In this document: piece by piece, positions 1 to 15,117 of the stretch
How positions within the stretch are numbered: position 1 is the first letter of the stretch
How the letters are laid out: each line of letters opens with the position of its first letter
Virus genome (UHGV): UHGV-1727645
DNA: 15,117 nucleotides
Origin: a virus
Direction: 5' to 3' (one strand)
Program-made: the position numbers and the translations under genes
Notes under the pieces: generated by a model
Told to the model about the DNA's origin: nothing
Database searches by the model: none
Seen by the model: the letters and a program-made list of their open reading frames with translations, nothing else

Positions 1-1260
1 CGTTCTTCCGTTCCTCAGCCTGTGCAGTATCAGCAGCAGCCAAACGTAGGTTTAATGGCGCTACAGGGGCTAAGAGGCGTTGCTGAGATTAATCAGCAGG
101 CGCAAATTTCCCAGCAGCTAAAAGAATATCAGGCACGGTTGGGTAGTGCGGTAGCTAATAATGATCGTGTTGGCGTGCAGAAGTTAATGGCCCAGTATCC
201 CCAGTTTATAGCTGATTCTCAAAAACAGATGGGATTCATTGATGCTGAGCAAAATCGACAGACCGCTGACGCTGCCATGAATCTGCGTCTTGCGTCACAA
301 ACTGGAGATCCACTGACCATGCAGAAGGCCATTCAGCAGGCAAATCCAGTATTACAGCAATTTGGTCTTCCTGCTGAAGAGGTTTATCAGTCTTGGCAGA
401 ATGACCCACAGGAATTCAACAGAATCACTGACCTCATCCATCTCCATGCTGATCCAAATAGTTACTTTAGTGTTCAAGAGAAGCAGCAAGGGCAGAGCAT
501 TGCACAGCAGAACGCAGATACATCTGCATATAATGCTCAGGTTAATGCGGAACAGGGTAATCGGCGTCTCGATATGGAGCAGTTCAAAGTCCTATCCGAT
601 AACCAACTACGCACGAGAGAAATGGTTCTGAAAGCACGACTTGGACGTGCTCAAAATGATATCGAGAGAGACAAGCTCAATGCTGAACTGAGCAAGGTAC
701 AGCAGGCGAAAGTGGAGAAGATGAACGATAAAATTAATACTGTTGCAGGTAACATCGACTCCTTGAACTCTGCGCTTGAAGTGGGTCATGAACTGGCGGG
801 AATTGTAGGGAAACATCCTTCGGCCGTTACCCGCTCGCAGAACTATAACCCCCTGACGCTGGGGTTTGGATTCCTTCCTGATGTAGCAGAAGACACACGA
901 AGCCTGCGCGCCAAAGCTGATGAATACAACCTAAAGGTTATTCTGCCTAGCCTCAAAGGGACTTTTGGCTCTAACCCAACCGAAGGGGAAAGGGCTGCCC
1001 TTATGCAATCTCAAAATGGCATTAAGTCAGCAACCAGCAATGAGGCCTTTTTGCGAGAGTTGAATAAAGCGCAGGACGTAATTATTCGAATGCAGAAACG
1101 ACAGATTGCCGGGCTCGGTATTCCTGTAACCAAATCAAAGGACGAAGAAACTGATACCAAAATGCTGTTGCAGGATCCTTCACTGGTTAAGGATTATGTG
1201 ACCGCACATGGCTATCTGCCGGAAAGTTACTATCAGGCAAAACTTAAGGGATGGCAATGA
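1..1260 (+). CDS. Gln/Ala-rich protein, 5' end outside window; probable virion/ejection-type structural protein of a phage-like element (function inferred, not recognised)
   Basis: Frame is open from base 1 to TGA at 1258-1260; the first in-window start is GTG at 22 with no Shine-Dalgarno before it, so the gene probably begins upstream. Its stop overlaps the start region of the next gene (ATG at 1251/1257/1260), implying translational coupling. No catalytic motif recognised. Confidence 0.6.
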   Translation, partial: RSSVPQPVQYQQQPNVGLMALQGLRGVAEINQQAQISQQLKEYQARLGSAVANNDRVGVQKLMAQYPQFIADSQKQMGFIDAEQNRQTADAAMNLRLASQTGDPLTMQKAIQQANPVLQQFGLPAEEVYQSWQNDPQEFNRITDLIHLHADPNSYFSVQEKQQGQSIAQQNADTSAYNAQVNAEQGNRRLDMEQFKVLSDNQLRTREMVLKARLGRAQNDIERDKLNAELSKVQQAKVEKMNDKINTVAGNIDSLNSALEVGHELAGIVGKHPSAVTRSQNYNPLTLGFGFLPDVAEDTRSLRAKADEYNLKVILPSLKGTFGSNPTEGERAALMQSQNGIKSATSNEAFLRELNKAQDVIIRMQKRQIAGLGIPVTKSKDEETDTKMLLQDPSLVKDYVTAHGYLPESYYQAKLKGWQ

Positions 1261-3977
1261 TGGCACAACTGACAGAAAAACAGAAAGCCTATTCCCGTCA
1301 TCTCGATGAAAAATATGGTTTCCCATCAGGGACGATGGAAACATTAGTTGGCAATGAATCTAGTGGTAACGGAAGTGCCGAGTCACCGAAAGGAGCTAGA
1401 GGATTTGCTCAACTGATGCCCTCAGTAATGAGTGATGCTGGTTATCGTGGAACTGATCCGCGCTCACTGCCATTTGAAAAGCAAATGGATATCGCAGCAA
1501 ACCATCTCAATAAAGGAATGAAGCGATTTGGTGATATAGGTATGGCATTGGCTGGGTATAATTCTGGCTATGCTCGTATTAATGCCGTCAGAAACGGTAA
1601 ATCTACACTGCCAGATGAAACGGCTAATTACGTAAGTAAATTTGCAGATGCCGGAATAATCCCTGATGACAGTGAAATCTTGCAGTTTGCACAAACCAGT
1701 CAACATCGCAATCTTCAGCAGCCTGACTACTCAGAGCTTGATAAAGAAATCTCTCAGGTGGGAGATATTTCTGCATGGGAAGCAAAACGTCAGCAATTTA
1801 AGAACATAGAAGCAGGACTACCAACAGCCAGTTCATGGGAGCAGAAAAGAGCTCAGTTTCTCGCCGATGAAAATGCCGGGGAACCGCAGCAGCAAGTAGC
1901 CAAGTCTAACCTTAATCCTGAGATGGAATATCTTTCGCCAGGACTGAAAGCTGCGCCAGAGCAGATGGCCAGAGGGATTGCTAATATACCGTTTGATGTA
2001 ATGGACGCAGGCGTGGGGGTAGTCAATGCGGCGCAATCAGCCGGAGCATGGGCAGCTCAGAAGCTTGGTGTGGGTGATGGCACATACACGCCCATATCAC
2101 CTGTCTTTCGCCCAGTAGACCAACCTACAGATCCATACGCGCAGGCTGGTGAGCAGCTAGCACCTTACCTTATTACAGGATTAGGTGCAGGAAAGGCAGC
2201 TACCGCAGCTTCTTCAGTTGCCAACGCTCCACGTGCTGAACGTGCGGCCACAAAGGTGGCTAGTATGTTGGCAGAAAACCTGCCAGGTACATTGGTGAAC
2301 GCCCAAAAGAACGGGCAGATCAGCCCAGAAGACCTAGCAAAAGAGACAGGTATTGGCCTAGCAGGATCGCTAGGAGCACGCGCTTTAATAAAGAGCGGAC
2401 AGACAGCCAGTGACGTAATGCGAGATGTATTGCGGAGTAATACAAATCAATCAGGCCATGTGTTAGGGGCAGCAAATACTCTGGAAACCGCCAATGATGT
2501 ATCGAAAGCAGCGCGTTCTGCCGTAGGCCGAGAGCATATCGCATCGCAGGCATCAAACGTCAGAGATGATGTCGCTAAGGCGGCGAAAATCACTGGTATT
2601 AATATCAACACCCTGACGCCTGGAATGCGCTCAGGTAGTCGTGGAATTGCCCAAGCAGAAGGTGTTCTGGCATCAACTCCTGGGAATGTTCAGGATGCTC
2701 ACCTTACGGCCTTCAATGAAATATCCTCAAAGTTGAATAAGCAGTTGTCTGATTTCGGTGCTGAGTCTGGAAGCGCATCAGAAAAAAGCGCAGCAATTAA
2801 AGAGCGCATCATCGCGAGCCTCAGTGATATGAAAACAGCAGAGAATATGGCATGGGCAGAACTGCGAAGCACGATGCCACGCGAAAGGATGAAAATGAGT
2901 AATGGGATGGCTGTCGTCCAAGCAGAAAAAGCAGCCAATGTTCCACTCAGCCCGGAGATGAAACAGTTTCAGGCTGCCAACAACCAAGGTGGCGGCATAA
3001 CCTTCGACGGGATGAAGGCATGGCGTGCTAAGTTTGCTGATGCTGAACAAGCAAACACCCGGGCAGGTAAGGCCAATGCTGCCCGGATTGCCGGAGAAAT
3101 GCGCAGAGCTATCACTGATGACATGCGCATCATGGCTGAAAAAGGAAACTTCCTCACAGAATGGCAGAAAGCTAACGATCTCTCTAAAAGTTACATTATC
3201 GCCAAACAAAATGCCGAATCTGTTTTTGGTCGAGAACTCGCATCAGACGCTATGGTAAGAAAAGGTGCCGATACGCTTAAGGCATCCGCAAACACTGGAA
3301 CGGGAGCTTTTCACCGCCTTATCTCCGCGCTGCCGGAAGCAGAACGCCAACCAGCAATAGCATCTATTCTTCAGCATGTTGTGGCGCAGGGAGAGAAGGG
3401 AGGAATCGGTGAAGAGTCTGGTATCCAGTATTTTGCCAAGCTCATGACCCAGCAGAATGTAAACGCCATCAGTCGTCATGCGCCAGATCTCGGTAGAATG
3501 ATGAAAGAGTTCGGTGTACTCGCTAAAGCCAGCACCAGACCGCAGCGATACGTAGAGCGCACGGGAAGAACAACTGAGGCTCTCAAAACGCTCGATTCAG
3601 GCCTTCCAAAGATCGTCGGTGTGATTATGAACGGAGTTCAACAGTCAGGTGCGATCGCTGGAGGCTTTGGCGGTGGTGTAATTGGTTCGATTAGTGGTTT
3701 GGTTGCTGGTGGCGCACTGAGAAATACTGTGGCTAAGATTGGGGCGACAAGAAGTGGTCGATATGCGATAGAGAAAGCCGTTCAGGAAGCTACAAAAGCA
3801 GTGCGCGCAGGGGCATCACCAGCAGCGATCGCCGCAGCAGAGAAACGATTTTCGGCCAATAAAATTGCCATGAAAGCAATTCGTGATGCCGTTGGGGCTG
3901 AAGAATTCGTGAAACTGACAAGGGCCGGGATTGTAGCTACCCTCAGTGGCATGAAAGATGTTAGCGAATGGGAATAG
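1251..3977 (+). CDS. Large (908 aa) protein with N-terminal family-1 lytic transglycosylase (SLT) domain and C-terminal Gly-rich hydrophobic segment; phage internal-virion/ejection-like or tape-measure-like
   Basis: Translated N-terminus carries the three SLT signature motifs: E-S (E36-S37), G-A-x-G-F-A-Q-L-M (res 48-56) and A-G-Y-N-S-G (res 101-106), about nt 1356-1570. C-terminal segment GAIAGGFGGGVIGSISGLVAGGAL (about nt 3650-3720) looks like a glycine-zipper membrane helix. True start may be ATG 1257 or 1260 (better spacing from AAGGGA at 1246-1251). Confidence 0.8.
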   Translation: MAMMAQLTEKQKAYSRHLDEKYGFPSGTMETLVGNESSGNGSAESPKGARGFAQLMPSVMSDAGYRGTDPRSLPFEKQMDIAANHLNKGMKRFGDIGMALAGYNSGYARINAVRNGKSTLPDETANYVSKFADAGIIPDDSEILQFAQTSQHRNLQQPDYSELDKEISQVGDISAWEAKRQQFKNIEAGLPTASSWEQKRAQFLADENAGEPQQQVAKSNLNPEMEYLSPGLKAAPEQMARGIANIPFDVMDAGVGVVNAAQSAGAWAAQKLGVGDGTYTPISPVFRPVDQPTDPYAQAGEQLAPYLITGLGAGKAATAASSVANAPRAERAATKVASMLAENLPGTLVNAQKNGQISPEDLAKETGIGLAGSLGARALIKSGQTASDVMRDVLRSNTNQSGHVLGAANTLETANDVSKAARSAVGREHIASQASNVRDDVAKAAKITGININTLTPGMRSGSRGIAQAEGVLASTPGNVQDAHLTAFNEISSKLNKQLSDFGAESGSASEKSAAIKERIIASLSDMKTAENMAWAELRSTMPRERMKMSNGMAVVQAEKAANVPLSPEMKQFQAANNQGGGITFDGMKAWRAKFADAEQANTRAGKANAARIAGEMRRAITDDMRIMAEKGNFLTEWQKANDLSKSYIIAKQNAESVFGRELASDAMVRKGADTLKASANTGTGAFHRLISALPEAERQPAIASILQHVVAQGEKGGIGEESGIQYFAKLMTQQNVNAISRHAPDLGRMMKEFGVLAKASTRPQRYVERTGRTTEALKTLDSGLPKIVGVIMNGVQQSGAIAGGFGGGVIGSISGLVAGGALRNTVAKIGATRSGRYAIEKAVQEATKAVRAGASPAAIAAAEKRFSANKIAMKAIRDAVGAEEFVKLTRAGIVATLSGMKDVSEWE

Positions 3978-4127
3978 ACGCTCTAACTAACAAAACCATA
4001 ATAGCCAAGGACGGCATACTGATATTGAGCCAACTATAAAAATTCCATATCACATTACGAGCCTGTGGCTTACATTCGCTTACAGTGATGATAATTTATA
4101 ACCACGCAATTCTTAGGTGAGATTATC

Positions 4128-4826
4128 ATGATTAAAAATCTTCTTTTAATATTATCCCTGTCATTATTGGCTGGATGCGTACAAAAACCGTTAGTAACGG
4201 TCAATGCTTTATCCTCCGGGCAATCTGTCGGCAAGAAGTTCTTGATCATCCCCGCAAGCCAAGAACTTTGGAACACCAAACAGATTGAATACACTCAAAT
4301 AGCTACGGTAGTAGCCGCCAGTTTATCAAGCCAAGGATATACACAAGTTAAAGATGAAAAATTGGCTGACCAGGTAATTCTCTTGAACTTTTTGAGAAGC
4401 GGGGCCATTTCAAATACTCGTAATGTAACCATCCCAATATACGGGCAAACTGGTGTGAGCTCAGCAACAACGTACGGAAACTCGAACACCACGTTCAATA
4501 GTTATGGTGGTGGCTACGGTACAGCTAATACCACTGGAACGGCAACAACAGTTTATACGCCTACTTATGGAATTACTGGCGCGTATAACACAACTGTGAC
4601 GGACACGTTCTACGGCGCAGGGGTGATACTCCAGTCGTTTGATGCCAAGGCTTATCTCAATAATAGGCAGATTAATATGTTATGGAAAGTTGGTAGCTCA
4701 GTCGTCTCGCAACAGTCTGATGGAATTGCTGATTACAAAGGTTTGGCGAGAATAGCCGCTAGCTATGCCGGGAAAAATACAGAAGGTGATATAACTTTTA
4801 ATGTTGACCCTAAAGCACCAAATTAA
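4128..4826 (+). CDS. Lipoprotein (lipobox L-A-G-C, Cys17) with Thr/Gly/Tyr/Asn-rich low-complexity region
   Basis: SD GGTGAG 7 nt upstream of ATG 4128; N-terminus MIKNLLLILSLSLLAGC is a classical signal peptidase II signal with lipobox; residue after Cys is Val (not Asp), suggesting outer-membrane sorting. Residues ~110-165 are low complexity (TTYGNSNTTFNSYGGGYGTANTTGTATT...). Confidence 0.7.
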   Translation: MIKNLLLILSLSLLAGCVQKPLVTVNALSSGQSVGKKFLIIPASQELWNTKQIEYTQIATVVAASLSSQGYTQVKDEKLADQVILLNFLRSGAISNTRNVTIPIYGQTGVSSATTYGNSNTTFNSYGGGYGTANTTGTATTVYTPTYGITGAYNTTVTDTFYGAGVILQSFDAKAYLNNRQINMLWKVGSSVVSQQSDGIADYKGLARIAASYAGKNTEGDITFNVDPKAPN

Positions 4827-4833
4827 CTAATAA

Positions 4834-4849
4834 GCCCGGTACGCCGGGC
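4834..4849 (+). terminator. GC-rich hairpin (GCCCGG-TACG-CCGGGC) 8 nt after lipoprotein stop; putative terminator
   Basis: 6-bp perfect GC stem with 4-nt loop directly downstream of TAA 4824-4826; no strong U-tract follows, so confidence is limited. Confidence 0.4.
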
Positions 4850-5046
4850 ATTCATGCCCCTATTATTCATGAATCGCTTTTTCTGGAAGGTATGCGACAA
4901 ACGTTAAGTGACATTGCCTACACATTCGGGGCGGGATTTCAAATCCGCTCCCAGTTGATGGGGCCGTTACAGTACGCGCATATCCGCTTTATGTGAAACA
5001 GGAAGATTTTTCTGATATCACTGCCACAGCAAAACACCAATTTTGA

Positions 5047-5062
5047 GACAAGTACGCGCGCG
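5047..5062 (+). repeat. Copy A of 3-copy repeat, core GACAAGTACGCGCGCG
   Basis: Exact 16-nt core shared with 5335-5350 and 7089-7104; this copy has an imperfect palindrome (TACGCGCGCGAG). Confidence 0.7.
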
Positions 5063-5072
5063 AGGGGTATCA

Positions 5073-5092
5073 GTTGCAAAAAATTTTGCAAC
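5073..5092. repeat. Near-perfect palindrome GTTGCAAAAAATTTTGCAAC
   Basis: Inverted repeat GTTGCAAAA / TTTTGCAAC read directly; 10 nt downstream of repeat copy A. Confidence 0.5.
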
Positions 5093-5311
5093 TACGTCCG
5101 ACCAGTATGCACACGATGGCGGGGGGGATACCATAAAACTGTTCTCTACATGAGACAGAGTGGTGGTGATGTGTTGATTATCGGCGTATATGCGCACAGG
5201 ACGCGCTATGACGATGTTTTATGCGGGTACACCAATCACATGTATCTGGTGTGATAAATCGCGTTACATGACCTCTCATGTTGTGCTGGTGGTTATCACG
5301 ACGTTCTGAAT

Positions 5312-5370
5312 CTGGCCTTTGCCTGGTATTTTGCGACAAGTACGCGCGCGTAGCATCGAAATAATCGGAT
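5312..5370 (+). repeat. Copy B of 3-copy repeat (about 55 bp, CTGGC..TGGTATTT.G.GACAAGTACGCGCGCG-TAGCA), palindromic core TACGCGCGCGTA at 5341-5352
   Basis: Aligns over about 55 bp with copy C (7063-7120) at roughly 80 percent identity by eye; core is a perfect 12-bp alternating-CG palindrome. Confidence 0.7.
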
Positions 5371-5611
5371 GGCGTATGCTGCTGGTAATATGAAGACCGA
5401 TAGCATTAACCGTAAGGAGAAAGACTTCTCGATAACGGCAAGGGGGCTGAATTGCGAGGCGAGATTAAGCAACTGTCTTGAACGTAAAAATCATGGAGCA
5501 ACATGATGGTACGATTCATTCCATTCTTCGTTCTTTCTGAGCATTGCGTTCAGGCTTAGTCAAAATTAGTGTTGCGAGCGGACCTATTAGTAATTGTTAG
5601 TGCGATGCGCC

Positions 5612-5641
5612 TGTTATGGATTGTTATGGATTGTTATGGTT
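5612..5641 (+). repeat. Tandem decamer array: TGTTATGGAT x2 + TGTTATGGTT
   Basis: Three head-to-tail 10-bp units read directly from sequence; about 260 bp beyond the AlpA-like gene 3' end. Confidence 0.7.
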
Positions 5642-5897
5642 GTGGCAGGCCTGATTAATATCCAGTATGACCACCAGCTATGAGAGGCCACCTCAGTGGT
5701 TCGCAGTTGCAGGTTTGCACTCAGGTTCGCAGGGTTTTGGCTACTTTCACGTGCGAACCTGCAGAATTGCAAAGGACAACTAAGTCTTCTGGCCAACTCC
5801 CGGTTTATGAGCGACACAGTCCGCCTGGCGCATCGTTTTCGTCGAGTGCGCCCATCAGCTTGTCCATGGACTATCCACCACTCGATATTAAAGCTAA

Positions 5898-6083
5898 TCA
5901 TTGGTTGCCAGCCCGCGAATCAAGTTTGTTCTGGATCCAAGCTTCAACCTCCTCAAGCGACCATCTAGCTGATCTACCAATTTTAACTGGCTGTGGAAAC
6001 GTGCCCGTCTTAACCCATGAGTAGATTGCCGTTTTCTTGAAGCCCGTTCTGAGCATGACTTCGCTTAATTTGATAAGGCGCAT
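5898..6083 (-). CDS. alpA: AlpA-family phage/integrative-element transcriptional regulator (excisionase-like HTH), 61 aa
   Basis: Translated product MRLIKLSEVMLRTGFKKTAIYSWVKTGTFPQPVKIGRSARWSLEEVEAWI matches the AlpA (Phage_AlpA) pattern: HTH, G-x-FP-x-P-x-K-I-G, R-W-x-x-x-E-V-x-x-W. Strong SD AGGAG 5 nt upstream of ATG on the minus strand. Confidence 0.85.
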   Translation of the reverse strand: MRLIKLSEVMLRTGFKKTAIYSWVKTGTFPQPVKIGRSARWSLEEVEAWIQNKLDSRAGNQ

Positions 6084-6132
6084 AGAGGCTCCTCTGCTTT
6101 AGATTAAGCATAGTGACAATCTGGCTTTGGGT

Positions 6133-6167
6133 GGTATCCAAAAGCGAGGTATCCATGTTGGTATCCA
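6133..6167. promoter_or_regulatory. Three direct repeats of GGTATCCA (6133, 6148, 6160) in the alpA / small-protein divergent intergenic region; candidate operator
   Basis: Exact 8-mers at 15- and 12-bp spacing, 50-85 bp upstream of the alpA start codon. Confidence 0.45.
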
Positions 6168-6304
6168 CCAAAACGCTGTTTACCAAAAAAGTTACCACCG
6201 GAACAGGACATTTTGAGCTGTAACTTAACACATAGCATATGGAGTTCACGCATAGACTTCACGCACAACGGCTCTGGCCAGTGAAGAATCACCCTGGCTA
6301 GCAA

Positions 6305-6310
6305 TATAAT
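6305..6310 (+). promoter_or_regulatory. Consensus -10 hexamer TATAAT upstream of small-protein gene 6336..6527
   Basis: Perfect TATAAT 26 bp upstream of ATG 6336, leaving a leader that contains the SD AGAGGGG; -35 region is weak (TGAAGA). Confidence 0.3.
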
Positions 6311-6335
6311 GCCGATCACCATCAGAGGGGAATCC

Positions 6336-6527
6336 ATGACACCACGAGAAATCGAGCTGCTGACCATTGCCAAGCTGGAGCATGGCGGCCACCAGCTCAG
6401 CCCGGCAGAACTGCGGGAATTAAGGCGCCAGCTGGCAGAGGGCCCTGTAATAGCCAGGCGGTACCGCGAAATGATGACCAGCCCCGCATATCGCTGGAGC
6501 AAACCAGCGCCGCTCCGTGCGCGGTGA
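6336..6527 (+). CDS. Small conserved protein (63 aa), paralog of 7338..7523; possibly Icd-like (tentative)
   Basis: Start chosen at ATG 6336 (SD AGAGGGG 5 nt upstream) rather than ORF-track ATG 6309 because the paralog starts with the same MTPREI..LLTIAKLEHGGHQL sequence. The Icd-like label is from memory of annotations of similar small genes next to alpA/perC, not verified. Confidence 0.65.
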   Translation: MTPREIELLTIAKLEHGGHQLSPAELRELRRQLAEGPVIARRYREMMTSPAYRWSKPAPLRAR

Positions 6528-6600
6528 GCAGCACCTAACCAGCACTAGACAAGCCCTGTGCTGGTGGATGTCCCTCATAATTAGCGGTTTTTAAACGGCG

Positions 6601-6723
6601 TGTTGGTTCACGGCCTCTTTTTGTTGGTTCAAAAATGGGGTGTGTTGGTTCACTTTTTGCGAATAATTCTTTTAAAAACAATACTCTTTACAAATTGAAC
6701 CAACTGAACCAACTGAACCAACA
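6601..6723. repeat. Iteron-like array: TGTTGGTTCA x3 direct at 21-bp phasing (6601, 6622, 6643) plus three tandem inverted copies TGAACCAAC (6696-6723)
   Basis: Read directly; the inverted units are the exact reverse complement of the direct units; array sits immediately upstream of the PerC-like gene. Confidence 0.75.
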
Positions 6724-6758
6724 CCTTTTTGCTTATCTATATAATCTGAGAGGCAGAA

Positions 6759-7040
6759 ATGATAAGGGACAGGAAAGCTGAAGAGCTGGAGTCAAAAGGG
6801 CTATACCGGAGAGCTGCCGCACGATGGATGGAAGTCATGCTGTTATGCACCGAGGACGATGATCGGGAATGGATAAAGCGCCGCCGTGAAACGTGTCTGG
6901 AGAACGTGAAGCGCCCGCCCGTGAAGGTTGAGGAATTTGGCGACCTGCATAAAGCTGTTACCGAAACGCAACACCGCATGGGGATAGCGCAACCGAACGG
7001 TAACGCCTTCCGGTTAAATGGCGGCAAGAGGCAAAGGTAG
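6759..7040 (+). CDS. PerC-family transcriptional regulator (93 aa)
   Basis: N-terminus MIRDRKAEELESKGLYRRAAARWMEVM resembles the PerC/Pch family as I remember it; SD GAGAGG 5 nt upstream of ATG 6759. Family call from memory. Confidence 0.6.
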   Translation: MIRDRKAEELESKGLYRRAAARWMEVMLLCTEDDDREWIKRRRETCLENVKRPPVKVEEFGDLHKAVTETQHRMGIAQPNGNAFRLNGGKRQR

Positions 7041-7044
7041 ACCA

Positions 7045-7066
7045 CCAGAGGGAAATCATCCTCTGG
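7045..7066 (+). terminator. Hairpin CCAGAGG-(8 nt)-CCTCTGG 4 nt after PerC-like stop
   Basis: 7-bp perfect stem, followed by a moderately T-containing stretch that merges into repeat copy C. Confidence 0.4.
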
Positions 7067-7120
7067 CTGGCGGTTTCTGGTATTTCGGGACAAGTACGCG
7101 CGCGCGTAGCACCCAATCGG
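7063..7120 (+). repeat. Copy C of 3-copy repeat, palindromic core TACGCGCGCGCGTA at 7095-7108
   Basis: Same orientation as copies A and B; lies immediately after the hairpin that follows the PerC-like gene; 14-bp perfect palindrome. Confidence 0.7.
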
Positions 7121-7337
7121 TGAGGAAATAGCGGCGACCTGAATGGTCAAAATCACAACGCAGCTATCCCCGTAAGCAGCGCTTAACGGAATAGCAGTAA
7201 CCTGAATCCAGTGGGGAGGGGGTAGTCAAATCTCTACAGCCCTGACTATCCGGGACTGCCCGCCCCATCGTTTTTTTATACCCGCGAAAAATGAAATTTA
7301 ATCCGGGCGTGTTTCATCCTTCCAGAGGGTATGACGT

Positions 7338-7523
7338 ATGACACCACGCGAAATAGCCTTATTGACCATCGCCAAACTTGAGCACGGAGGCCACCAGCTT
7401 ACACAGGCAGATCAACGGGAGATAGAACGATCAGTTAATGCCGATATAGCCCGGCGCGACAGGTTCCGCGAAATGATGCGAGCACCTGCCTACCAGTGGA
7501 AGAAGCCAGCGCCGCGCAGGTAG
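7338..7523 (+). CDS. Small conserved protein (61 aa), paralog of 6336..6527; possibly Icd-like (tentative)
   Basis: About 65 percent identical by eye to the 6336 product; SD GAGGG upstream of the ATG. Confidence 0.65.
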   Translation: MTPREIALLTIAKLEHGGHQLTQADQREIERSVNADIARRDRFREMMRAPAYQWKKPAPRR

Positions 7524-7643
7524 ATATGGGATTATTCCACATGTAACTTATGCGTATTAAGCAAATTTCCTTTATTCACCTTTACAGAATTGTGAGTACG
7601 TCAGTATCGTTATCCTTCCGATTCGCATTTATTCAGGATTTGC

Positions 7644-8186
7644 ATGTACCAGCTAAAGATAACCATCCGAGACAGCAAACCACCTATATGGCGGCGTGTG
7701 CTGGTTCCAGAGCAAATCCCCTTTAGTAAACTTCATGCCGTGATCCAGTTAGCTTTTGGCTGGAATGACGAACACCTGTATATGTTCGAGAAAGGGCGTA
7801 AAGGTGATCCAGGTAGCGAGTATCGCGTATGGGGTGAGGATGAAAGCATGGGTAACGCGGCAATCACGCCACTATGGGCGGCGCTCCAGAATGAGGGTGA
7901 CAAGCTGGTTTACACGTATGACTTTGGCGACTGGTGGGATTGCGTCATTGTGCTGGAGAAGCAAACACACGATACGAGTAATCAGCCCATTAGCTGCCTG
8001 CGTGGGAAAGGCACCACCCCGGCGGAAAACTCAGGCGGCTTGCATGGTTACAATGAATTGCTATTACAGGCCAGAGAGTCTGATAATCCTGAGCAGGCCG
8101 AGATCCACAATTTCCTGATGCTGGATATTGAACGCCGGGTTTACGACCTGAGCCGCATCAACGACAGATTGCAGGCTATTAACTGA
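7644..8186 (+). CDS. pRiA4b ORF3-family protein (PF07929-like), 180 aa
   Basis: N-terminus YQLKITIRDSKPPIWRRVLVPEQIPFSKLHAVIQLAFGWNDEHLYMF and later YDFGDWWD match the characteristic pRiA4b ORF-3 motifs (Y-x-L-K, P-P-I-W-R-R, L-H-x-x-I-Q-x-A-x-G-W, H-L-x-x-F, YDFGD-W). SD CAGGA 5 nt upstream. Confidence 0.8.
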   Translation: MYQLKITIRDSKPPIWRRVLVPEQIPFSKLHAVIQLAFGWNDEHLYMFEKGRKGDPGSEYRVWGEDESMGNAAITPLWAALQNEGDKLVYTYDFGDWWDCVIVLEKQTHDTSNQPISCLRGKGTTPAENSGGLHGYNELLLQARESDNPEQAEIHNFLMLDIERRVYDLSRINDRLQAIN

Positions 8187-8538
8187 CCCGCATGTATTCA
8201 CCTGATATTGCGTTGTCAGCGCCGCCAGTATCGCGCATAACAGCGCACTGACCGGGTAAACCGTAGCGCACGACCGTTGCGTTAGTATCACCGCCACGCT
8301 TTACCTGCCGCGATTCATACACTGTCACCCGCTCAAGCAGTCCACCAGCAACCATGCTTTCCAGTGTGCGCCGGGTTGATTCGAGCTGGTGACGCTTATC
8401 GAACGACACCATGCCATGAAGCAGGTAGGCCACACCCGACACATCGAACGGCGGCGCACCAATCTCACCAGTCACCCATTCGAGGTTATCCGGTTCAAAG
8501 TAGCTAAGTATCTCTTTTTTGCGACTGGTCATTCTCAT
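8179..8538 (-). CDS. Hypothetical protein (119 aa), convergent with and overlapping the pRiA4b ORF3 gene by 8 bp
   Basis: Uninterrupted ORF with plausible composition and SD-like AAGGAA upstream; no motif recognised. Confidence 0.55.
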   Translation of the reverse strand: MRMTSRKKEILSYFEPDNLEWVTGEIGAPPFDVSGVAYLLHGMVSFDKRHQLESTRRTLESMVAGGLLERVTVYESRQVKRGGDTNATVVRYGLPGQCAVMRDTGGADNAISGEYMRVS

Positions 8539-9065
8539 GGCTGGCTGATTCCTTATTGTGGGATAGCACTATCATACAATAAGTGGGTTAAAGGGAGAGC
8601 GTTACCGCCTGATATGCTGTATGAATAACAACCAAATTTCAGGTGCGGAAAAAGATATGGGGGTACTTTTGGGGGTATCTATAAAAAATGAACAATAAAA
8701 AAGGCAACAAAAACAAAGCTTATCGCCTATGTGTATTGTTCCTATTATCGCACCATTTAAATCAATAAGTTAGATAAGTGTGTGCCTAGATTTTCTTGCA
8801 GTTTGTCATTTGGGTACACACAGGGGACACAAAGCACAAAAGTGTGTACATTTGGTTTTGGTGTCCTCGTGTTTACTTCTTACCGTTGATATAAATTCAC
8901 TTTCTTGTTGACAAAAATTGTAAGCATGTCGAATGGCAATGTAGACATCGCTATTAGTTGTTTGGTAAGGTATTTATTGAGTGTAAACATAAAAACTTTA
9001 TCAATATATGCTCAGACTGATGAGGTCAGTATTGATACTGATGTTTTCAAATTTTAGGCCATAAA

Positions 9066-9754: not shown

Positions 9755-10807
9755 CTACTGCTCGATCAAACATTTGCTCCATAAAGGTTGGATCGCATGT
9801 CGATCTTTGCTGTAGGGGAATCTTTTATTTTTTTTCTTCTGTTCCATCAGTAATGTGTCGATTTCGTTGTTGACAATGCGCGTCACAGCGTGACGATAAC
9901 GGTTTAGCGATGTATCACTGATATCCTGAGGCAGGCATAAACTGGTATCGGTTTTGATGCGTTCATTTATGCCATCTTTAACTTTCCATTTCAGACCATC
10001 CGGAACCCCTTCCTGCAAATCATAGGCTTTCAGTCCCGCAAGTCGTACAACAACGTCAATCTTCTCTGTTCGTATTTTTTTATTACTTACCAACAAAACT
10101 TTATTAGTTTCATACCATTTTTCAAATGATTCCAGCCGTTTTACTGCATTTATGATGTTATTCCGAATTCCAGAAAATTCAATAGAATCTGTGTGTTTCA
10201 TTTTCTTTTCTTCAGCATTAGGGGCTATTCCTGGATAGTCAATATCATGCTTTACTGACTCCAGATATGCATATTGCAGGCAGCCTGAAAGATGAATTGC
10301 GGCATCCTGCAGAGTATTAGTGCGAATCAATCTAAGGAGTTCATCTCGTTGTATGGTTATCTGACAATAATCCCTTTCCCATGCGGTCGTATTCTCGGTT
10401 TTTTCATCTTTATCCGGAGTAACTGTTGCGAATTTCCATGTGTACTGGATGAAATCTGTTGGTTTAAAATACGCCATGCTTGTTTTTACCCAACCACAGA
10501 TTTCAGCTGCATAAATATGGACATAAATATTGTACATTGTCTGTATTTCACGCTGACTGGCGACTGAAAACATATTTTTTACGAATTCTGTACATCCGAT
10601 TATCGATAGTCGTTCTCTCAGTCTGTGCACATCTTCAGTATCTGACTTCCTGCAGTCCCAGGGCCATTTGTTCTTATTCTCAAAACAGGAAAGCCATTCT
10701 GGAATATTTTGCTTATTCTGGTAGAATTCGTTAACCGCCAGACCAATGGTTATGGCAAGTATTGTTGATTCATCTATTTCATGATACTGCTTCAGGTGTG
10801 CCAGCAA
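9755..10807 (-). CDS. Hypothetical Lys/Asn/Ile-rich protein; C-terminal 350 codons of a ~543-codon reading frame interrupted by one in-frame TAA (probable pseudogene or base-call error)
   Basis: ORF-track start is TTG 10807 with no SD; the frame is open upstream through 10808-11002 (65 codons, no stop, no start codon) to the TAA at 11003-11005 that ends the 127-aa ORF, which is in the same frame. Confidence 0.6.
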   Translation of the reverse strand: MLAHLKQYHEIDESTILAITIGLAVNEFYQNKQNIPEWLSCFENKNKWPWDCRKSDTEDVHRLRERLSIIGCTEFVKNMFSVASQREIQTMYNIYVHIYAAEICGWVKTSMAYFKPTDFIQYTWKFATVTPDKDEKTENTTAWERDYCQITIQRDELLRLIRTNTLQDAAIHLSGCLQYAYLESVKHDIDYPGIAPNAEEKKMKHTDSIEFSGIRNNIINAVKRLESFEKWYETNKVLLVSNKKIRTEKIDVVVRLAGLKAYDLQEGVPDGLKWKVKDGINERIKTDTSLCLPQDISDTSLNRYRHAVTRIVNNEIDTLLMEQKKKNKRFPYSKDRHAIQPLWSKCLIEQ

Positions 10808-11002
10808 CTCTGAGGTGCAGGAGTGCGCAACAGACAGATCCTGATGGCAATACCCCTGCCGGGCTTCTGCTGGAATTGGTGAACTCCAAGCTTTACATTC
10901 AGTCAGAATATTAAATAAATCATCTCCTACAAACTTTGCCAGTTCAGGTGTTTTCCAGGTTCTCGGTCCTGGGCTGATAAAGGTTGATGTTGTCTGTACC
11001 TC

Positions 11003-11386
11003 TTACATCGCCCCCCAGGTTTTCAGACTGATATTTCCTTCATCAAAACCATTGTATAAATGGCACATCACATTAAGCGCATCTGTAAGAGCAGAAGGAG
11101 TGGGTTGGGGGGAGGTAGACTCTTCAATAGTAAGCTTTGGTTCTTCAGCGCTTCTTTGTTCTCTAAAGATTCTCAGGAGCTCTGTATTGGCACGTAATGC
11201 AGAGAGTACTCTGTGCTGTTCTTCAAACCAGGGGCGATATTCTGGATCCTGATATAGTTGACGTGCTTTAAAAATGAGCAAAAGGATTTGTTCGGAAACC
11301 GCCTCGTATATGCCAGGGAAAGGGTGGAGTTCGCCGGATAAAACACGATCATACTGATACTTTTGTTGCATTGTCCGAGTTACCAT
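11003..11386 (-). CDS. N-terminal 127 codons of the same interrupted ~543-codon reading frame; function unknown
   Basis: Ends at TAA (plus 11003-11005), in frame with the downstream 350-codon ORF; upstream is a 690-bp AT-rich divergent intergenic region. Confidence 0.55.
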   Translation of the reverse strand: MVTRTMQQKYQYDRVLSGELHPFPGIYEAVSEQILLLIFKARQLYQDPEYRPWFEEQHRVLSALRANTELLRIFREQRSAEEPKLTIEESTSPQPTPSALTDALNVMCHLYNGFDEGNISLKTWGAM

Positions 11387-11705: not shown

Positions 11706-12076
11706 AATTAGATGGAAATATTTCACCTTCCTGCGACTCCTCCATGCTTTGTTTGAATTTTACATGGATTTATTTATATATCCCAACCTAATTTTAGTCA
11801 ACAAAAATCGTCATAATGGATTTTTAATATTAATTTTTGTTTTTATTGGTCGCGGCTTGTTTTTATTTGGTTCTATATGTCTTTATTTTTTCTATTAAAA
11901 GCCATTTTAACATTGCAATTCAGTATTTTGACCTATAAAAATCATAGTATTACATTTTATTTGTAAGGTGTTGACTGGATGAATGATAGTGACTTTCACT
12001 CATTGTTTATCCGGGAAACTTAGTCATTTCATGCTCATGCCGGAAATAAAAAGTATTGATATATCAGGAGGGTAGT

Positions 12077-12304
12077 ATGTGGCTTCCATTAACAGATGAA
12101 CAGCGTCTGGTCATTTTGAAAGCTTATGGGATTGAATGCGACAGACTGGTACGTGAAAAGGAACGATATGAGATCACGTCAATTTCTCGTACACAAGCGT
12201 GGAAACTTGAACGGGAGGGAACATTTCCACCACGTAAGTCTATCGGAAAGAAATCTTGCGGATGGTTGTTAAGTGACCTTCTCTGCTGGATACAGACCAG
12301 ATGA
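12077..12304 (+). CDS. AlpA-family regulator with about 30-aa N-terminal extension (75 aa from ATG 12077)
   Basis: C-terminal half ITSISRTQAWKLEREGTFPPRKSIGKKSCGWLLSDLLCWI fits the AlpA HTH pattern; SD AGGAGG 5 nt before ATG 12077 (ORF-track start TTG 12056 lies upstream of the SD). Confidence 0.7.
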   Translation: MWLPLTDEQRLVILKAYGIECDRLVREKERYEITSISRTQAWKLEREGTFPPRKSIGKKSCGWLLSDLLCWIQTR

Positions 12305-12409: not shown

Positions 12410-12637
12410 ATGTCTTACATCAAACCGGATACTCCGCATCCAGTATATGCGCAACCATCAATGACTGGAAATGCAATAATTGAAACTCAACACAATGAAA
12501 AAGCATCTCTGGCTATGACTACAACATCATTATTAACAGCGATGTCAATTGCCTGTCAGAATCAGATTGAGGTGTGCAACCCCGGAAATTTACGTGGGCC
12601 CGTTAATATTTACACTATGGTTCTGGCTGATTCCTGA
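12410..12637 (+). pseudogene. Truncated duplicate of the 5' end of the YfjI/DUF3987-like gene (75 codons)
   Basis: Product aligns by eye with the N-terminus of the 12886 gene (NAIIETQ..LAM..TS.LTA.SIACQNQI.VC.PGNLRGPVN.Y...LADS), then hits a stop where the full copy continues (GATTCCTGAGAAAGG versus GATTCTGGTGAAAGG). Confidence 0.6.
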
Positions 12638-12885
12638 GAAAGGTAAAAGACCGGGGGGAAGGTGTTAGTGAAATAATTTTAGGAGGTGTTAAGAATGAGA
12701 AACATGAATGATATTTCGTGGTAAATAACACAGTATGAACTGAATTAACCTTATCGGTTTATTAAACATCAGATCTACAGATATTCTGTATTTCTCAGAA
12801 CATTAGGTCTGAACAGCAGCTATTTCGCTATTATAGCGGGAGTTGCTGCTACTTTACTAACCCATTAATGAAAAGAGAGGCTTTT

Positions 12886-13890
12886 ATGTGCTTACTTGCA
12901 CCAGAAAATCCTTATCCGATATATGCACTACCACCGCTGGTGAGAAATGCAATAATTGAAACTCAAAAAAATACACAGGCACCTTTGGCTATGGTGGCGA
13001 CATCCGCATTAACAGCGATCTCAATTGCCTGTCAGAATCAGATTGACGTGTGCAGACCTGGAAATTTACGTGGGCCTGTTAATCTTTACTCTCTGATTCT
13101 GGCTGATTCTGGTGAAAGGAAAACGACCGTGGATAAAGTGTTTATGAAAGCATTTTATCTCAGCGATGAAGCCCTCGCGGAAGAATACGCGAAACTGGTT
13201 GAGAATTACAGCACAGAAAAGGCAATATGGGAGCAAAAACAAAAAGCGCTGGAATCAAAATTTCATAAAGAGATTCGTGCCGGTAAAGATTACAAGGCAA
13301 CAGAATCAGAGCTTGAAACGCATCTGAATAAGTCTCCTGTTCCGCCGCAGATACGTCGAACAATTTTTAATGAGACAACTATAGAGGGAATGTTAAAATA
13401 TTACTCCGATAGCAATCGTTCTTTTGCTCTTGTATCCAGTGAAGGGGGGGTAATTTTTGACAGCCGGGCCATGAGTAAACTGGGAATTATTAACACTTTG
13501 TGGGATGGAGGTTCTCTTTTCATCGACAGGAAATCATCTCCCGGAATTAATTTGAAGGAGCCAAGACTGACGATGTCGGCGATGATTCAGCCTGATGTTT
13601 ACCACAAAGGTTTTTGTACGCGAAAAAAAGAACTTGTGAAAACGTCAGGACATCATGCAAGGTTTTTGATGTGTCAACCAACATCAACGCAGGGGACAAG
13701 GATAATAACCGGAGATAATTATTCATCACAGTATCAGGATTTGTTTGAACAGAGGATCAATGAGCTTATTGATGAAAGTCTGGCGATGAGTGGTGAACGA
13801 CGTTGCCTTCACTTTTCTCCTCAGGCTGCCAGAATCTGGACGGATTATTACAATGATGTGGAATCGAGCTGGGGGGATTGGGGCCTTTAA
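12886..13890 (+). CDS. YfjI/DUF3987-like protein, N-terminal part (frameshifted gene); family name tentative
   Basis: Start set at ATG 12886 (SD AGAGAGG 5 nt upstream; matches the start of the duplicated fragment) rather than ORF-track ATG 12868. The gene follows an AlpA gene, as in CP4-57-type elements. Frame ends at TAA 13888-13890, just after a G6 run. Confidence 0.65.
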   Translation: MCLLAPENPYPIYALPPLVRNAIIETQKNTQAPLAMVATSALTAISIACQNQIDVCRPGNLRGPVNLYSLILADSGERKTTVDKVFMKAFYLSDEALAEEYAKLVENYSTEKAIWEQKQKALESKFHKEIRAGKDYKATESELETHLNKSPVPPQIRRTIFNETTIEGMLKYYSDSNRSFALVSSEGGVIFDSRAMSKLGIINTLWDGGSLFIDRKSSPGINLKEPRLTMSAMIQPDVYHKGFCTRKKELVKTSGHHARFLMCQPTSTQGTRIITGDNYSSQYQDLFEQRINELIDESLAMSGERRCLHFSPQAARIWTDYYNDVESSWGDWGL

Positions 13891-14318
13891 GACATTGCCG
13901 GGAATATGCTGCTAAAAATGCAGAGTATATGGCAAGACTGGCAGGACTTATTTACCATTCGAGCGGTGAGGAGGGGGAGATTTCCCCTTACATTGCAGAA
14001 ATGGCGAGAGAATTAGCAATATGGTACGGTAATGAGTATGTGCGGTTGTCTAATCCGTTAACTTTTGACAACCCTGCCCTGACCGTACCTGTGCGACTCA
14101 TTCCAGAGGAGCTTGAACTTTTCAACTGGATAAAAAGCTATTGCATTGAGAAGGGGATCCTCTGTATGAAAAAAAATGACATTTTACAGCGTGGTCCGAA
14201 CCGTTTCCGGAAAAAGGATAAAATCAACTGGTTACTGGATTTACTGTATGAACAAAACAGAGTTGTACCGGTTATTGAGGGAAAAACGTTGTGTGTCGCA
14301 CCTAACTTTGACCTCTGA
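13878..14318 (+). CDS. C-terminal part of the same YfjI/DUF3987-like gene in the +1 frame (146 codons)
   Basis: Overlaps the upstream ORF by 13 nt; one extra G in the G6 run at 13871-13876 would fuse both ORFs into one frame of about 486 codons. Confidence 0.6.
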   Translation: MGPLRHCREYAAKNAEYMARLAGLIYHSSGEEGEISPYIAEMARELAIWYGNEYVRLSNPLTFDNPALTVPVRLIPEELELFNWIKSYCIEKGILCMKKNDILQRGPNRFRKKDKINWLLDLLYEQNRVVPVIEGKTLCVAPNFDL

Positions 14319-15069: not shown

Positions 15070-15117
15070 CAAAACAGTTTTATCAGGGTGTCTGTGCTGC
15101 TGGTTTACTTCGTTTAT

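What the first reader, a model, noticed from the sequence alone, without database searches (positions are those of the whole stretch)
13866..13890. YfjI/DUF3987-like gene is frameshifted at a G6 homopolymer
The 340-codon ORF ends ...AGC TGG GGG GAT TGG GGC CTT TAA just after GGGGGG (13871-13876); the following 146-codon ORF is in the +1 frame from 13878. Adding one G gives ...TGG GGG GGA TTG GGG CCT TTA AGA CAT..., a continuous frame of about 486 codons. This is either a homopolymer sequencing error, a genuine inactivating slip, or a slippage-prone tract that switches expression.
Basis: seen in the sequence. Interest (0 to 1): 0.45.

Follow-up and report, generated by a model that had tools for sequence, protein, structure and literature searches.

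The report
Frameshifted yfjI helicase gene, misplaced lesion
A helicase gene of a decaying E. coli genomic island is broken by the loss of a single A just upstream of a run of six Gs whose length is normal. It is an ordinary pseudogene or a metagenome assembly error, not a genetic switch.

Summary
The two ORFs, the G6 run at 13871-13876 and the frame offset are all real. The lesion is not in the G run. Intact orthologues are single 477-aa YfjI-family genes, and 912 complete E. coli records carry the exact intact 63-mer. They read GGAATCGAAGCTGGGGGGATT, with G6. The window reads GGAATCGAGCTGGGGGGATT, so one A of GAAG is missing at 13866/13867. No complete genome has G7. G5 occurs in 4 complete genomes of one other island lineage, where it is stably inherited and annotated as a pseudogene. 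The window's deletion is absent from all 5,426 complete E. coli genomes. I found it in only one other sequence, a human-gut metagenome scaffold of the same lineage. A third scaffold has an assembly gap ending exactly at this base. A fourth contig of the lineage has an intact gene carrying a foreign 10-substitution patch that starts there. The window also has private substitution clusters elsewhere. Real mutation versus assembly or sequencing artefact therefore cannot be decided without reads, and I lean slightly to real. The gene encodes a DUF3987 (MCM-like SF6) replicative helicase. The break removes the end of the ATPase domain and the C-terminal region. I found no evidence for phase variation or programmed frameshifting. 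Interest is low.

The parts
12886..14318 (+). yfjI-family gene (DUF3987, putative SF6/MCM-like replicative helicase of the island). In the window it is a pseudogene, split into a 334-codon ORF (12886-13890) and a 146-codon ORF (13878-14318).
   Evidence: It is 99.8% identical to the intact 477-aa WP_064995982 gene of NZ_CP195389, with 3 substitutions and 1 deletion. Pfam PF13148 scores E=1.4e-83 on the intact form and is split at profile position ~300/364 in the window. PHROG 2373 'DNA helicase' scores 6.5e-62.
13866..13867 (+). Site of the 1-nt deletion. Orthologues read CGAAGC and the window reads CGAGC. This is the actual cause of the frameshift.
   Evidence: Alignments. It is the only indel inside a gene across 6.4 kb compared with L001.
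13871..13876 (+). G6 run, at wild-type length. It encodes Gly-Gly in the intact frame (CTG GGG GGA).
   Evidence: G6 is present in intact L001 and L003 and in 912 records with the exact intact 63-mer. G7 is in 0 records and G5 in 4.
13888..13890 (+). Premature TAA stop reached in the shifted frame, 7 codons after the deletion.
12077..12304 (+). AlpA-family helix-turn-helix regulator gene upstream of yfjI (75 aa in PGAP annotation; the mechanical ORF starts at 12056).
   Evidence: Pfam PF05930 Phage_AlpA, E=2.1e-13. Annotated as WP_000266639 in orthologous loci.
12410..12637 (+). 5' remnant of a second DUF3987 gene. The region 12785-13157 is about 77% identical to it, so it forms an intralocus repeat.
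   Evidence: Pfam PF13148 profile positions 2-45. PGAP marks it as an incomplete pseudogene. Self-similarity is shown. The end of the homology at 13157 coincides with scaffold gaps in L005 and L011 and with the contig end of L008.
9755..11386 (-). Neighbouring 543-aa hypothetical gene, inactivated by a nonsense codon (TAA at 11003-11005; CAA in L001).
   Evidence: The same 127-aa truncated product is found on 7 metagenome or Logan contigs.
8740..8755 (+). 3' fragment of tRNA-Thr (thrW). It marks the right junction of the phage-like element that fills window 1-8757, and the yfjI island lies beyond it.
   Evidence: It matches the tRNA-Thr 3' end of L001 minus one G. No complete tRNA is present in the window. 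The left part is identical to NZ_CP063503 up to 8757.

Best explanation
The finding is a yfjI-family gene, the DUF3987/MCM-like helicase of a degraded CP4-57/CP4-6-type island next to thrW in E. coli. It has lost one A from the sequence GAAG at 13866/13867. The ribosome then reads seven wrong codons (S W G D W G L) and stops at 13888-13890. The product is a 334-aa protein that keeps the Walker A-like (SGERKT, residue 75) and Walker B-like regions. It lacks the last ~60 positions of the ATPase domain and the ~90-residue C-terminal region. The neighbouring G6 run has its normal length and is a bystander. I take the lesion to be a genuine, recent, lineage-restricted inactivating deletion in an island that is already decaying. 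The result is a plain pseudogene with no regulatory role. Shown: the position of the deletion, the intact state of orthologues, and the domain split. Inferred: loss of helicase function, and that the deletion exists in the cell rather than only in the assembly.
For: The deletion was mapped against intact copies. The same deletion is present in a separately assembled gut-metagenome scaffold, L011/L021 (JIEZ17-1 SAMEA104142365). That scaffold lacks the window's private substitutions, so the two are not one sequence. The island is demonstrably decaying in this lineage. The adjacent 543-aa gene has a nonsense substitution seen in 7 contigs from several pipelines. A DUF3987 remnant sits upstream. 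Independent frameshifts in this same gene occur in close relatives at other sites: L002 lost a T after the G7 run, L004 has A8 reduced to A7, and a further lineage has G5. An AA dinucleotide is not a typical homopolymer-error context. The deletion is the only intragenic indel in 6.4 kb. The right-hand contig of sister scaffold L005 begins exactly at AGCTGGGG. That is where an assembly graph would branch if reads with G|AGCT and A|AGCT were both present.
Against: The allele is absent from all 5,426 complete E. coli genomes. It is also absent from JGI metagenome contigs, GTDB representative genomes and IMG/VR, though those three scans had no positive control. The truncated 334/340-aa product is not among ~15 billion proteins. 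The site coincides to the base with a scaffold gap edge in L005. It also coincides with the left edge of a foreign 10-substitution patch in L007, which is the same lineage with an intact gene. The window has other private, clustered differences that look like low-coverage errors: 5 substitutions in 13 nt at 8296-8308, and G-to-C at 13164 and 13176 next to another gap edge. One sister contig reports coverage of 2.6x.
Confidence: 0.52

Rival explanations
1. The deletion is an assembly or sequencing artefact. The strain's gene is intact (GAAG + G6). One base was lost when low-coverage short-read metagenome contigs were joined, or were supported by an erroneous read, at a spot where the assembly graph is tangled. 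The tangling would come from a co-resident allele or paralogue with a divergent 35-nt patch.
For: The allele is known only from metagenome assemblies (the window and L011) and from no isolate or complete genome. Scaffold L005, which uses the same naming scheme as L011, has an N gap whose right edge is exactly the deletion site. L007 of the same lineage switches to another allele for 13869-13901, starting at this site, and is intact. These scaffolds show recurrent trouble at the same coordinates in different samples: a gap at 13086-13157 in both L005 and L011, and a 53-nt indel at 11835-11840 in both. The window itself carries private substitution clusters found in none of 352 genomes or in no genome at all. 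Sister-contig coverage is 2.6x.
Against: Single-base deletions in a non-homopolymer context are rare in Illumina assemblies. The deletion is shared by two non-identical assemblies. I could not derive a concrete assembler mechanism that drops exactly this A from the known alleles. No known allele has a SNP at that A, and the type-1 and type-2 alleles diverge 2 nt further right.
Confidence: 0.4
2. The G6 run is a slippage-prone contingency tract, or a site of translational -1 slippage, that modulates YfjI expression. In the window, a -1 slip on TGG GGG G would restore the frame and compensate the nearby deletion.
For: G6 to G5 has happened at least once and gives the same 334+146 split. A -1 re-pairing of tRNA-Gly on the G run would restore the downstream frame; this is read directly from the sequence.
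Against: The tract length is G6 in 912 records and G7 in none. The four G5 genomes share one island configuration and are annotated as pseudogenes, which indicates one inherited event and not switching. Orthologues are single ORFs. There is no canonical X XXY YYZ heptamer in frame. The downstream 101 nt fold no better than shuffles (z = -0.83). There is no Rfam hit. From general knowledge, known G/C contingency tracts are usually 7-8 nt or longer.
Confidence: 0.03
3. The deletion and the L007 patch are two outcomes of recombination at this spot. One version is that a short-patch gene conversion from a type-2 yfjI allele rescued the frameshift in the L007 strain. The other is that the deletion is a scar at a conversion junction.
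For: L007 shares the lineage's nonsense marker. It is identical to the window over 5.2 kb except for 13867-13901, where it carries exactly the allele found in 140 complete genomes. Its flanks remain window-type at 13841, 13845, 13854 and 13953. A simple k>=21 chimera of the two known alleles cannot produce that pattern; this last point is my inference.
Against: The hybrid allele exists on one metagenome contig only. It is in 0 complete genomes, and two pattern scans found nothing. It may itself be an assembly product.
Confidence: 0.05

Closest known systems
YfjI of E. coli K-12 prophage CP4-57, and 'YfjI family protein' orthologues in thrW-linked and other tRNA-linked islands
   Same: The product name assigned by NCBI annotation is the same. 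It has a full-length Pfam DUF3987 match, a length of about 477 aa, and the same gene order alpA - (DUF3987 remnant) - yfjI - yfjJ/yagK-type Gp2 gene in orthologous loci.
   Different: In the window the gene is interrupted by a 1-nt deletion at codon 328. The allele is not seen in any complete genome. The function of YfjI itself has not been tested experimentally, as far as the library searched shows.
DUF3987 helicases: SF6/MCM-related replicative helicases of phages and mobile elements, e.g. AgaPH (PriCT-DUF3987), shown to be a 5'-to-3' helicase
   Same: It has a DUF3987 ATPase domain with Walker A- and Walker B-like motifs, is encoded on a mobile element, and a C-terminal wHTH is expected (PMC4889955, PMC11724360, PMC5862659).
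   Different: YfjI has no PriCT domain and no adjacent AEP primase in the window, although a TOTE AEP primase remnant lies downstream in relatives. No biochemical data exist for this subfamily. Homology to AgaPH was not tested directly here.
G6-to-G5 pseudogene allele of the same gene in E. coli E686, TW10598, RIVM_C040348, 21437 and DEC10B
   Same: The same gene gives the same 334+146-codon split with the same premature stop.
   Different: That lesion is in the G run itself and keeps GAAG. It sits in a different island configuration (IS1 - alpA - yfjI - yfjJ - TOTE/NERD) and a slightly different allele, with 23 differences.
Homopolymer contingency loci and programmed frameshift sites (e.g. 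dnaX, IS3 transposases)
   Same: Two overlapping ORFs lie next to a G run.
   Different: The orthologues are single ORFs, the tract length is fixed, and there is no slippery heptamer or stimulatory structure.

Membership tests
YfjI family / Pfam DUF3987 (PF13148) | Significant match to the PF13148 profile above the gathering score | tested here: met
   The N-terminal ORF scores 240.5 bits (cut-off 27) over profile positions 1-300. The C-terminal ORF covers 304-363 at 22.2 bits. The repaired or orthologous protein scores 281.5 bits over 1-363.
YfjI family / Pfam DUF3987 (PF13148) | A single uninterrupted ORF of about 470-480 aa | tested here: not met
   The window gene is split at codon 328 by a 1-nt deletion. 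Orthologues are 477 aa. It is therefore a pseudogene member.
YfjI family / Pfam DUF3987 (PF13148) | P-loop ATPase motifs (Walker A and Walker B) as reported for DUF3987 helicases | tested here: inconclusive
   SGERKT at residue 75 and ALVSSEGG at residue 181 were seen by eye. They were not aligned to the characterised AgaPH motifs (PMC11724360).
YfjI family / Pfam DUF3987 (PF13148) | [quoted passage not shown] | not tested
   No structure prediction was run. About 90 residues follow the Pfam domain in the intact protein.
CP4-57/CP4-6-type island replication module (alpA - yfjI - yfjJ/yagK) | An AlpA gene upstream and a Gp2/YfjJ-type gene downstream | tested here: inconclusive
   AlpA is present at 12077-12304. 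The Gp2/YagK gene lies about 900 nt downstream in all orthologous loci but falls beyond the window's end at 15117.
Phase-variable (contingency) homopolymer locus | Tract length varies on and off among closely related genomes | tested here: not met
   G6 in 912 records, G5 in 4 (one island lineage), G7 in 0.
Programmed ribosomal frameshift | Split ORFs conserved in orthologues, with a slippery site and a downstream stimulatory structure | tested here: not met
   Orthologues are single ORFs. Downstream fold z = -0.83. No Rfam family matched.

The most novel reading that the evidence does not exclude
Within one gut E. coli lineage, marked by a shared nonsense mutation next door, the yfjI helicase gene exists as a frameshifted allele (window, L011) and as an in-frame allele (L007). 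In L007 a 35-98-nt patch copied from a divergent yfjI allele begins at the frameshift site. This would be a natural case of short-patch gene conversion rescuing, or creating, a frameshift in a cryptic-island gene.
Probability: 0.06. Interest if true: 0.35.

Novelty: already known. Interest (0 to 1): 0.1.

Why it matters
It matters little biologically. Frameshifted genes in cryptic prophage-like islands of E. coli are routine, and NCBI annotation already flags several independent 'frameshifted' YfjI pseudogenes. The practical value is methodological. A nearby homopolymer is not proof that a frameshift sits in it; here comparison with orthologues moves the lesion 4 nt upstream. A lesion known only from low-coverage metagenome scaffolds, at a base where sister assemblies break, should not be interpreted biologically without reads.

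Tried and rejected
1. G7 as the ancestral state: rejected, with 0 exact G7 matches against 912 for G6.

2. Looking for the window's allele elsewhere:
- Complete E. coli genomes: 0 of 1,260 matching records.
- JGI metagenome contigs, GTDB genomes and IMG/VR: 0 each.
- Exact-protein look-ups of the 340-aa and 334-aa ORFs: absent.

3. Identifying the window's source contig through its private 119-aa protein: not on record.

4. Explaining L007's patch as a simple two-strain chimera: rejected by inference. L007 keeps window-type bases at 13841, 13845 and 13854, only 15 nt from the patch.

5. Looking for the L007 hybrid elsewhere: none found.

6. Programmed frameshift or RNA element: no structure signal and no Rfam hit.

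7. Function of the neighbours: NCBIfam and PADLOC gave nothing for YfjI, the 543-aa protein or the 198-aa protein. The PDB sequence search gave no meaningful hit.

8. Not done, because the answer did not depend on it: the large homologue searches, structure prediction and fold search.

Full report
**Observation**

The window has an ORF at 12868-13890 and an overlapping ORF at 13878-14318 in another frame. It also has a run of six G at 13871-13876 and a TAA at 13888-13890. That part of the finding is correct. Pfam DUF3987 (PF13148) covers profile positions 1-300 in the first ORF and 304-363 in the second, so the two ORFs are halves of one gene.

**Where the lesion really is**

Megablast against 5,426 complete E. 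coli genomes finds about 1,400 copies of this gene, all named 'YfjI family protein'. The closest copies (99.5-99.8% identity) include intact 1,434-nt genes encoding 477 aa (NZ_CP195389 and NZ_AP029605).

Alignment shows that these intact genes also have G6. They read GGAATCGAAGCTGGGGGGATT, whereas the window reads GGAATCGAGCTGGGGGGATT. The window has therefore lost one A of GAAG at 13866/13867, 4 nt upstream of the run.

Orthologues start at the ATG equivalent to 12886, which is preceded by GAGAGG. On that start the halves are 334 and 146 codons and the whole gene is 477.

**Population test of the homopolymer idea**

I ran exact-match counts for 60-64-mers spanning the site in complete genome records:

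| Allele | Records with exact match |
|---|---|
| Intact GAAG + G6 | 912 |
| GAAG + G5 | 4 |
| GAAG + G7 | 0 |
| Window's GAG + G6 | 0 |

The G7 prediction is refuted. The four G5 genomes are E686, TW10598, RIVM_C040348 and 21437. The draft genome DEC10B and several Logan assemblies (L012-L017) carry G5 as well. All share one island layout: IS1, alpA, a DUF3987 remnant, yfjI, yfjJ, and TOTE/NERD genes. All have the same 334+146 split, and PGAP marks them 'frameshifted'.

The tract has therefore slipped at least once, and the product is a stably inherited pseudogene. It is not an on/off polymorphism. Two other close relatives are frameshifted at other sites. L002 lost the T that follows the G7 run, and L004 has A8 shortened to A7. 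The gene contains five homopolymers of six or more bases.

**What the gene is**

DUF3987 proteins are P-loop ATPases distantly related to MCM (helicase superfamily 6). They carry a C-terminal winged helix and are encoded by phages and mobile elements, often next to primases (PMC4889955, PMC5862659). One member, AgaPH, has been shown to be an ATP-dependent 5'-to-3' helicase (PMC11724360). PHROGs places YfjI in a 'DNA helicase' family.

In the window the gene sits in a thrW-linked island. The order is:
- a tRNA-Thr 3' fragment at 8740-8755;
- a 198-aa gene and a 543-aa gene of unknown function;
- alpA at 12077-12304;
- a 5' remnant of a second DUF3987 gene at 12410-12637;
- yfjI.

The Gp2/YfjJ-type gene that follows in all relatives lies just beyond the window's end.

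Window 1-8757 is the right end of a phage-like integrative element. It is identical to NZ_CP063503 except for one small cluster.

The truncated YfjI would retain the Walker A-like SGERKT motif. It would lose the last ~60 domain positions and the C-terminal ~90 residues. Loss of helicase function is inferred, not shown.

**Is the deletion real?**

The neighbouring 543-aa gene has a nonsense substitution, TAA at 11003-11005. The exact truncated product is on 7 metagenome or Logan contigs. This marks a lineage, and the lineage is informative:
- **L011/L021**, a gut-metagenome scaffold from SAMEA104142365, carries the same A deletion. It lacks the window's private substitutions.
- **L005**, another scaffold with the same naming scheme from a different sample, has a run of N whose right edge is exactly the deletion site (...NNNAGCTGGGGGG).
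- **L007**, a contig from run SRR413584, is identical to the window over 5.2 kb except at 13867-13901. There it has GAAG followed by ten substitutions, and its gene is intact at 477 aa.

The L007 patch is the allele found in 140 complete genomes, for example L018 and L019. Those genes are only ~91% identical to the window's gene overall. The hybrid of window-type flanks with this patch occurs in no complete genome and on only one contig.

The window also has private clusters that no other sequence shares:
- five substitutions in 13 nt at 8296-8308, found in 0 of 352 genomes, with all sister contigs disagreeing with the window;
- G-to-C at 13164 and 13176, which lie 7 and 19 nt from a gap edge in the sister scaffolds.

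The sister scaffolds break reproducibly at 13086-13157. That is the end of the homology with the upstream DUF3987 remnant. One sister contig reports 2.6x coverage.

**Weighing**

Three points favour a real mutation:
- two non-identical assemblies share the deletion;
- it is not in a homopolymer;
- the island is visibly decaying, and this gene is frameshifted independently in several relatives.

Three points favour an artefact:
- the allele is known only from metagenome scaffolds;
- it sits at a base where one sister assembly breaks and another switches allele;
- the window shows other error-like private clusters.

I could not derive a specific assembler mechanism that removes exactly this A. 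I put a real lineage-specific pseudogenisation at about 0.5 and an artefact at about 0.4. The remainder goes to recombination-related readings. Only reads can decide.

**Switch or recoding?**

Orthologues are single ORFs and the tract length is fixed. The frame has no canonical slippery heptamer. The 101 nt downstream fold no better than shuffled sequence (z = -0.83), and Rfam finds nothing. A -1 slip of tRNA-Gly on the G run would formally restore the frame in the window allele, but nothing suggests it happens above background.

**Verdict**

The finding is a correctly spotted frameshift in a YfjI/DUF3987 helicase gene, attributed to the wrong nucleotide. It is either an ordinary pseudogene in a degraded island or an assembly error. 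It is not novel and has low interest.

Noticed in passing
window 9755-11386 (minus strand), stop at 11003-11005: The neighbouring 543-aa hypothetical gene has a nonsense codon (TAA; CAA in NZ_CP195389). The exact 127-aa truncated product is on 7 metagenome or Logan contigs, so it serves as a lineage marker. The protein has no Pfam, NCBIfam, PHROG or PADLOC match.
   Followed up: yes
window 8296-8308 (inside the 119-aa ORF 8179-8538, minus strand): Five substitutions in 13 nt are private to the window. None of 352 complete genomes has them. Sister contigs L005, L006, L008 and L021 and genome NZ_CP063503 all agree with each other against the window. The common version contains a CGCGCC...GGCGCG inverted repeat. 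This could be a low-coverage sequencing error or a rare real patch.
   Followed up: partly
window 13164 and 13176: Two private G-to-C substitutions lie inside yfjI, one giving R93S and the other synonymous. They are 7 and 19 nt from the position where sister scaffolds have an assembly gap. No complete genome contains this 61-mer.
   Followed up: partly
L012-L017, L022-L025 (equivalent to window 13871-13876): A G6-to-G5 allele of the same tract occurs in another yfjI island lineage: E. coli E686, TW10598, RIVM_C040348, 21437, DEC10B and Logan assemblies. It gives the same 334+146 split and is annotated as a frameshifted pseudogene.
   Followed up: yes
L007 (reverse strand), equivalent to window 13867-13901: A contig of the same lineage has an intact yfjI with a 10-substitution patch matching a ~91%-identical allele family, set in otherwise window-type sequence. 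The hybrid is unique to that one metagenome contig.
   Followed up: partly
window 12410-12637 versus 12785-13157: A truncated second DUF3987 gene lies upstream of yfjI and is ~77% identical to the yfjI 5' region. The end of the homology (13157) coincides with scaffold gaps in L005 and L011 and with the contig end of L008.
   Followed up: partly
window 8740-8765: A thrW (tRNA-Thr) 3' fragment lacking one G relative to the native tRNA marks the junction between a phage-like integrative element (window 1-8757: P22 gp16-like ejection protein, lytic transglycosylase, PerC, PRiA4_ORF3 genes) and the yfjI island. No complete genome in the collection has the two elements adjacent as in the window.
   Followed up: partly
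window 11835-11840: Scaffolds L005 and L011 carry an extra 53 nt of AT-rich sequence here. It is absent from the window and from NZ_CP195389. Contig L006 diverges entirely from the window at 11847.
   Followed up: no
L002 (equivalent to window ~13451) and L004 (equivalent to window 14169-14176): Two of the closest complete genomes have their own yfjI frameshifts: a T lost immediately after the G7 run, and A8 shortened to A7. Their 543-aa neighbour gene is also annotated as frameshifted.
   Followed up: partly
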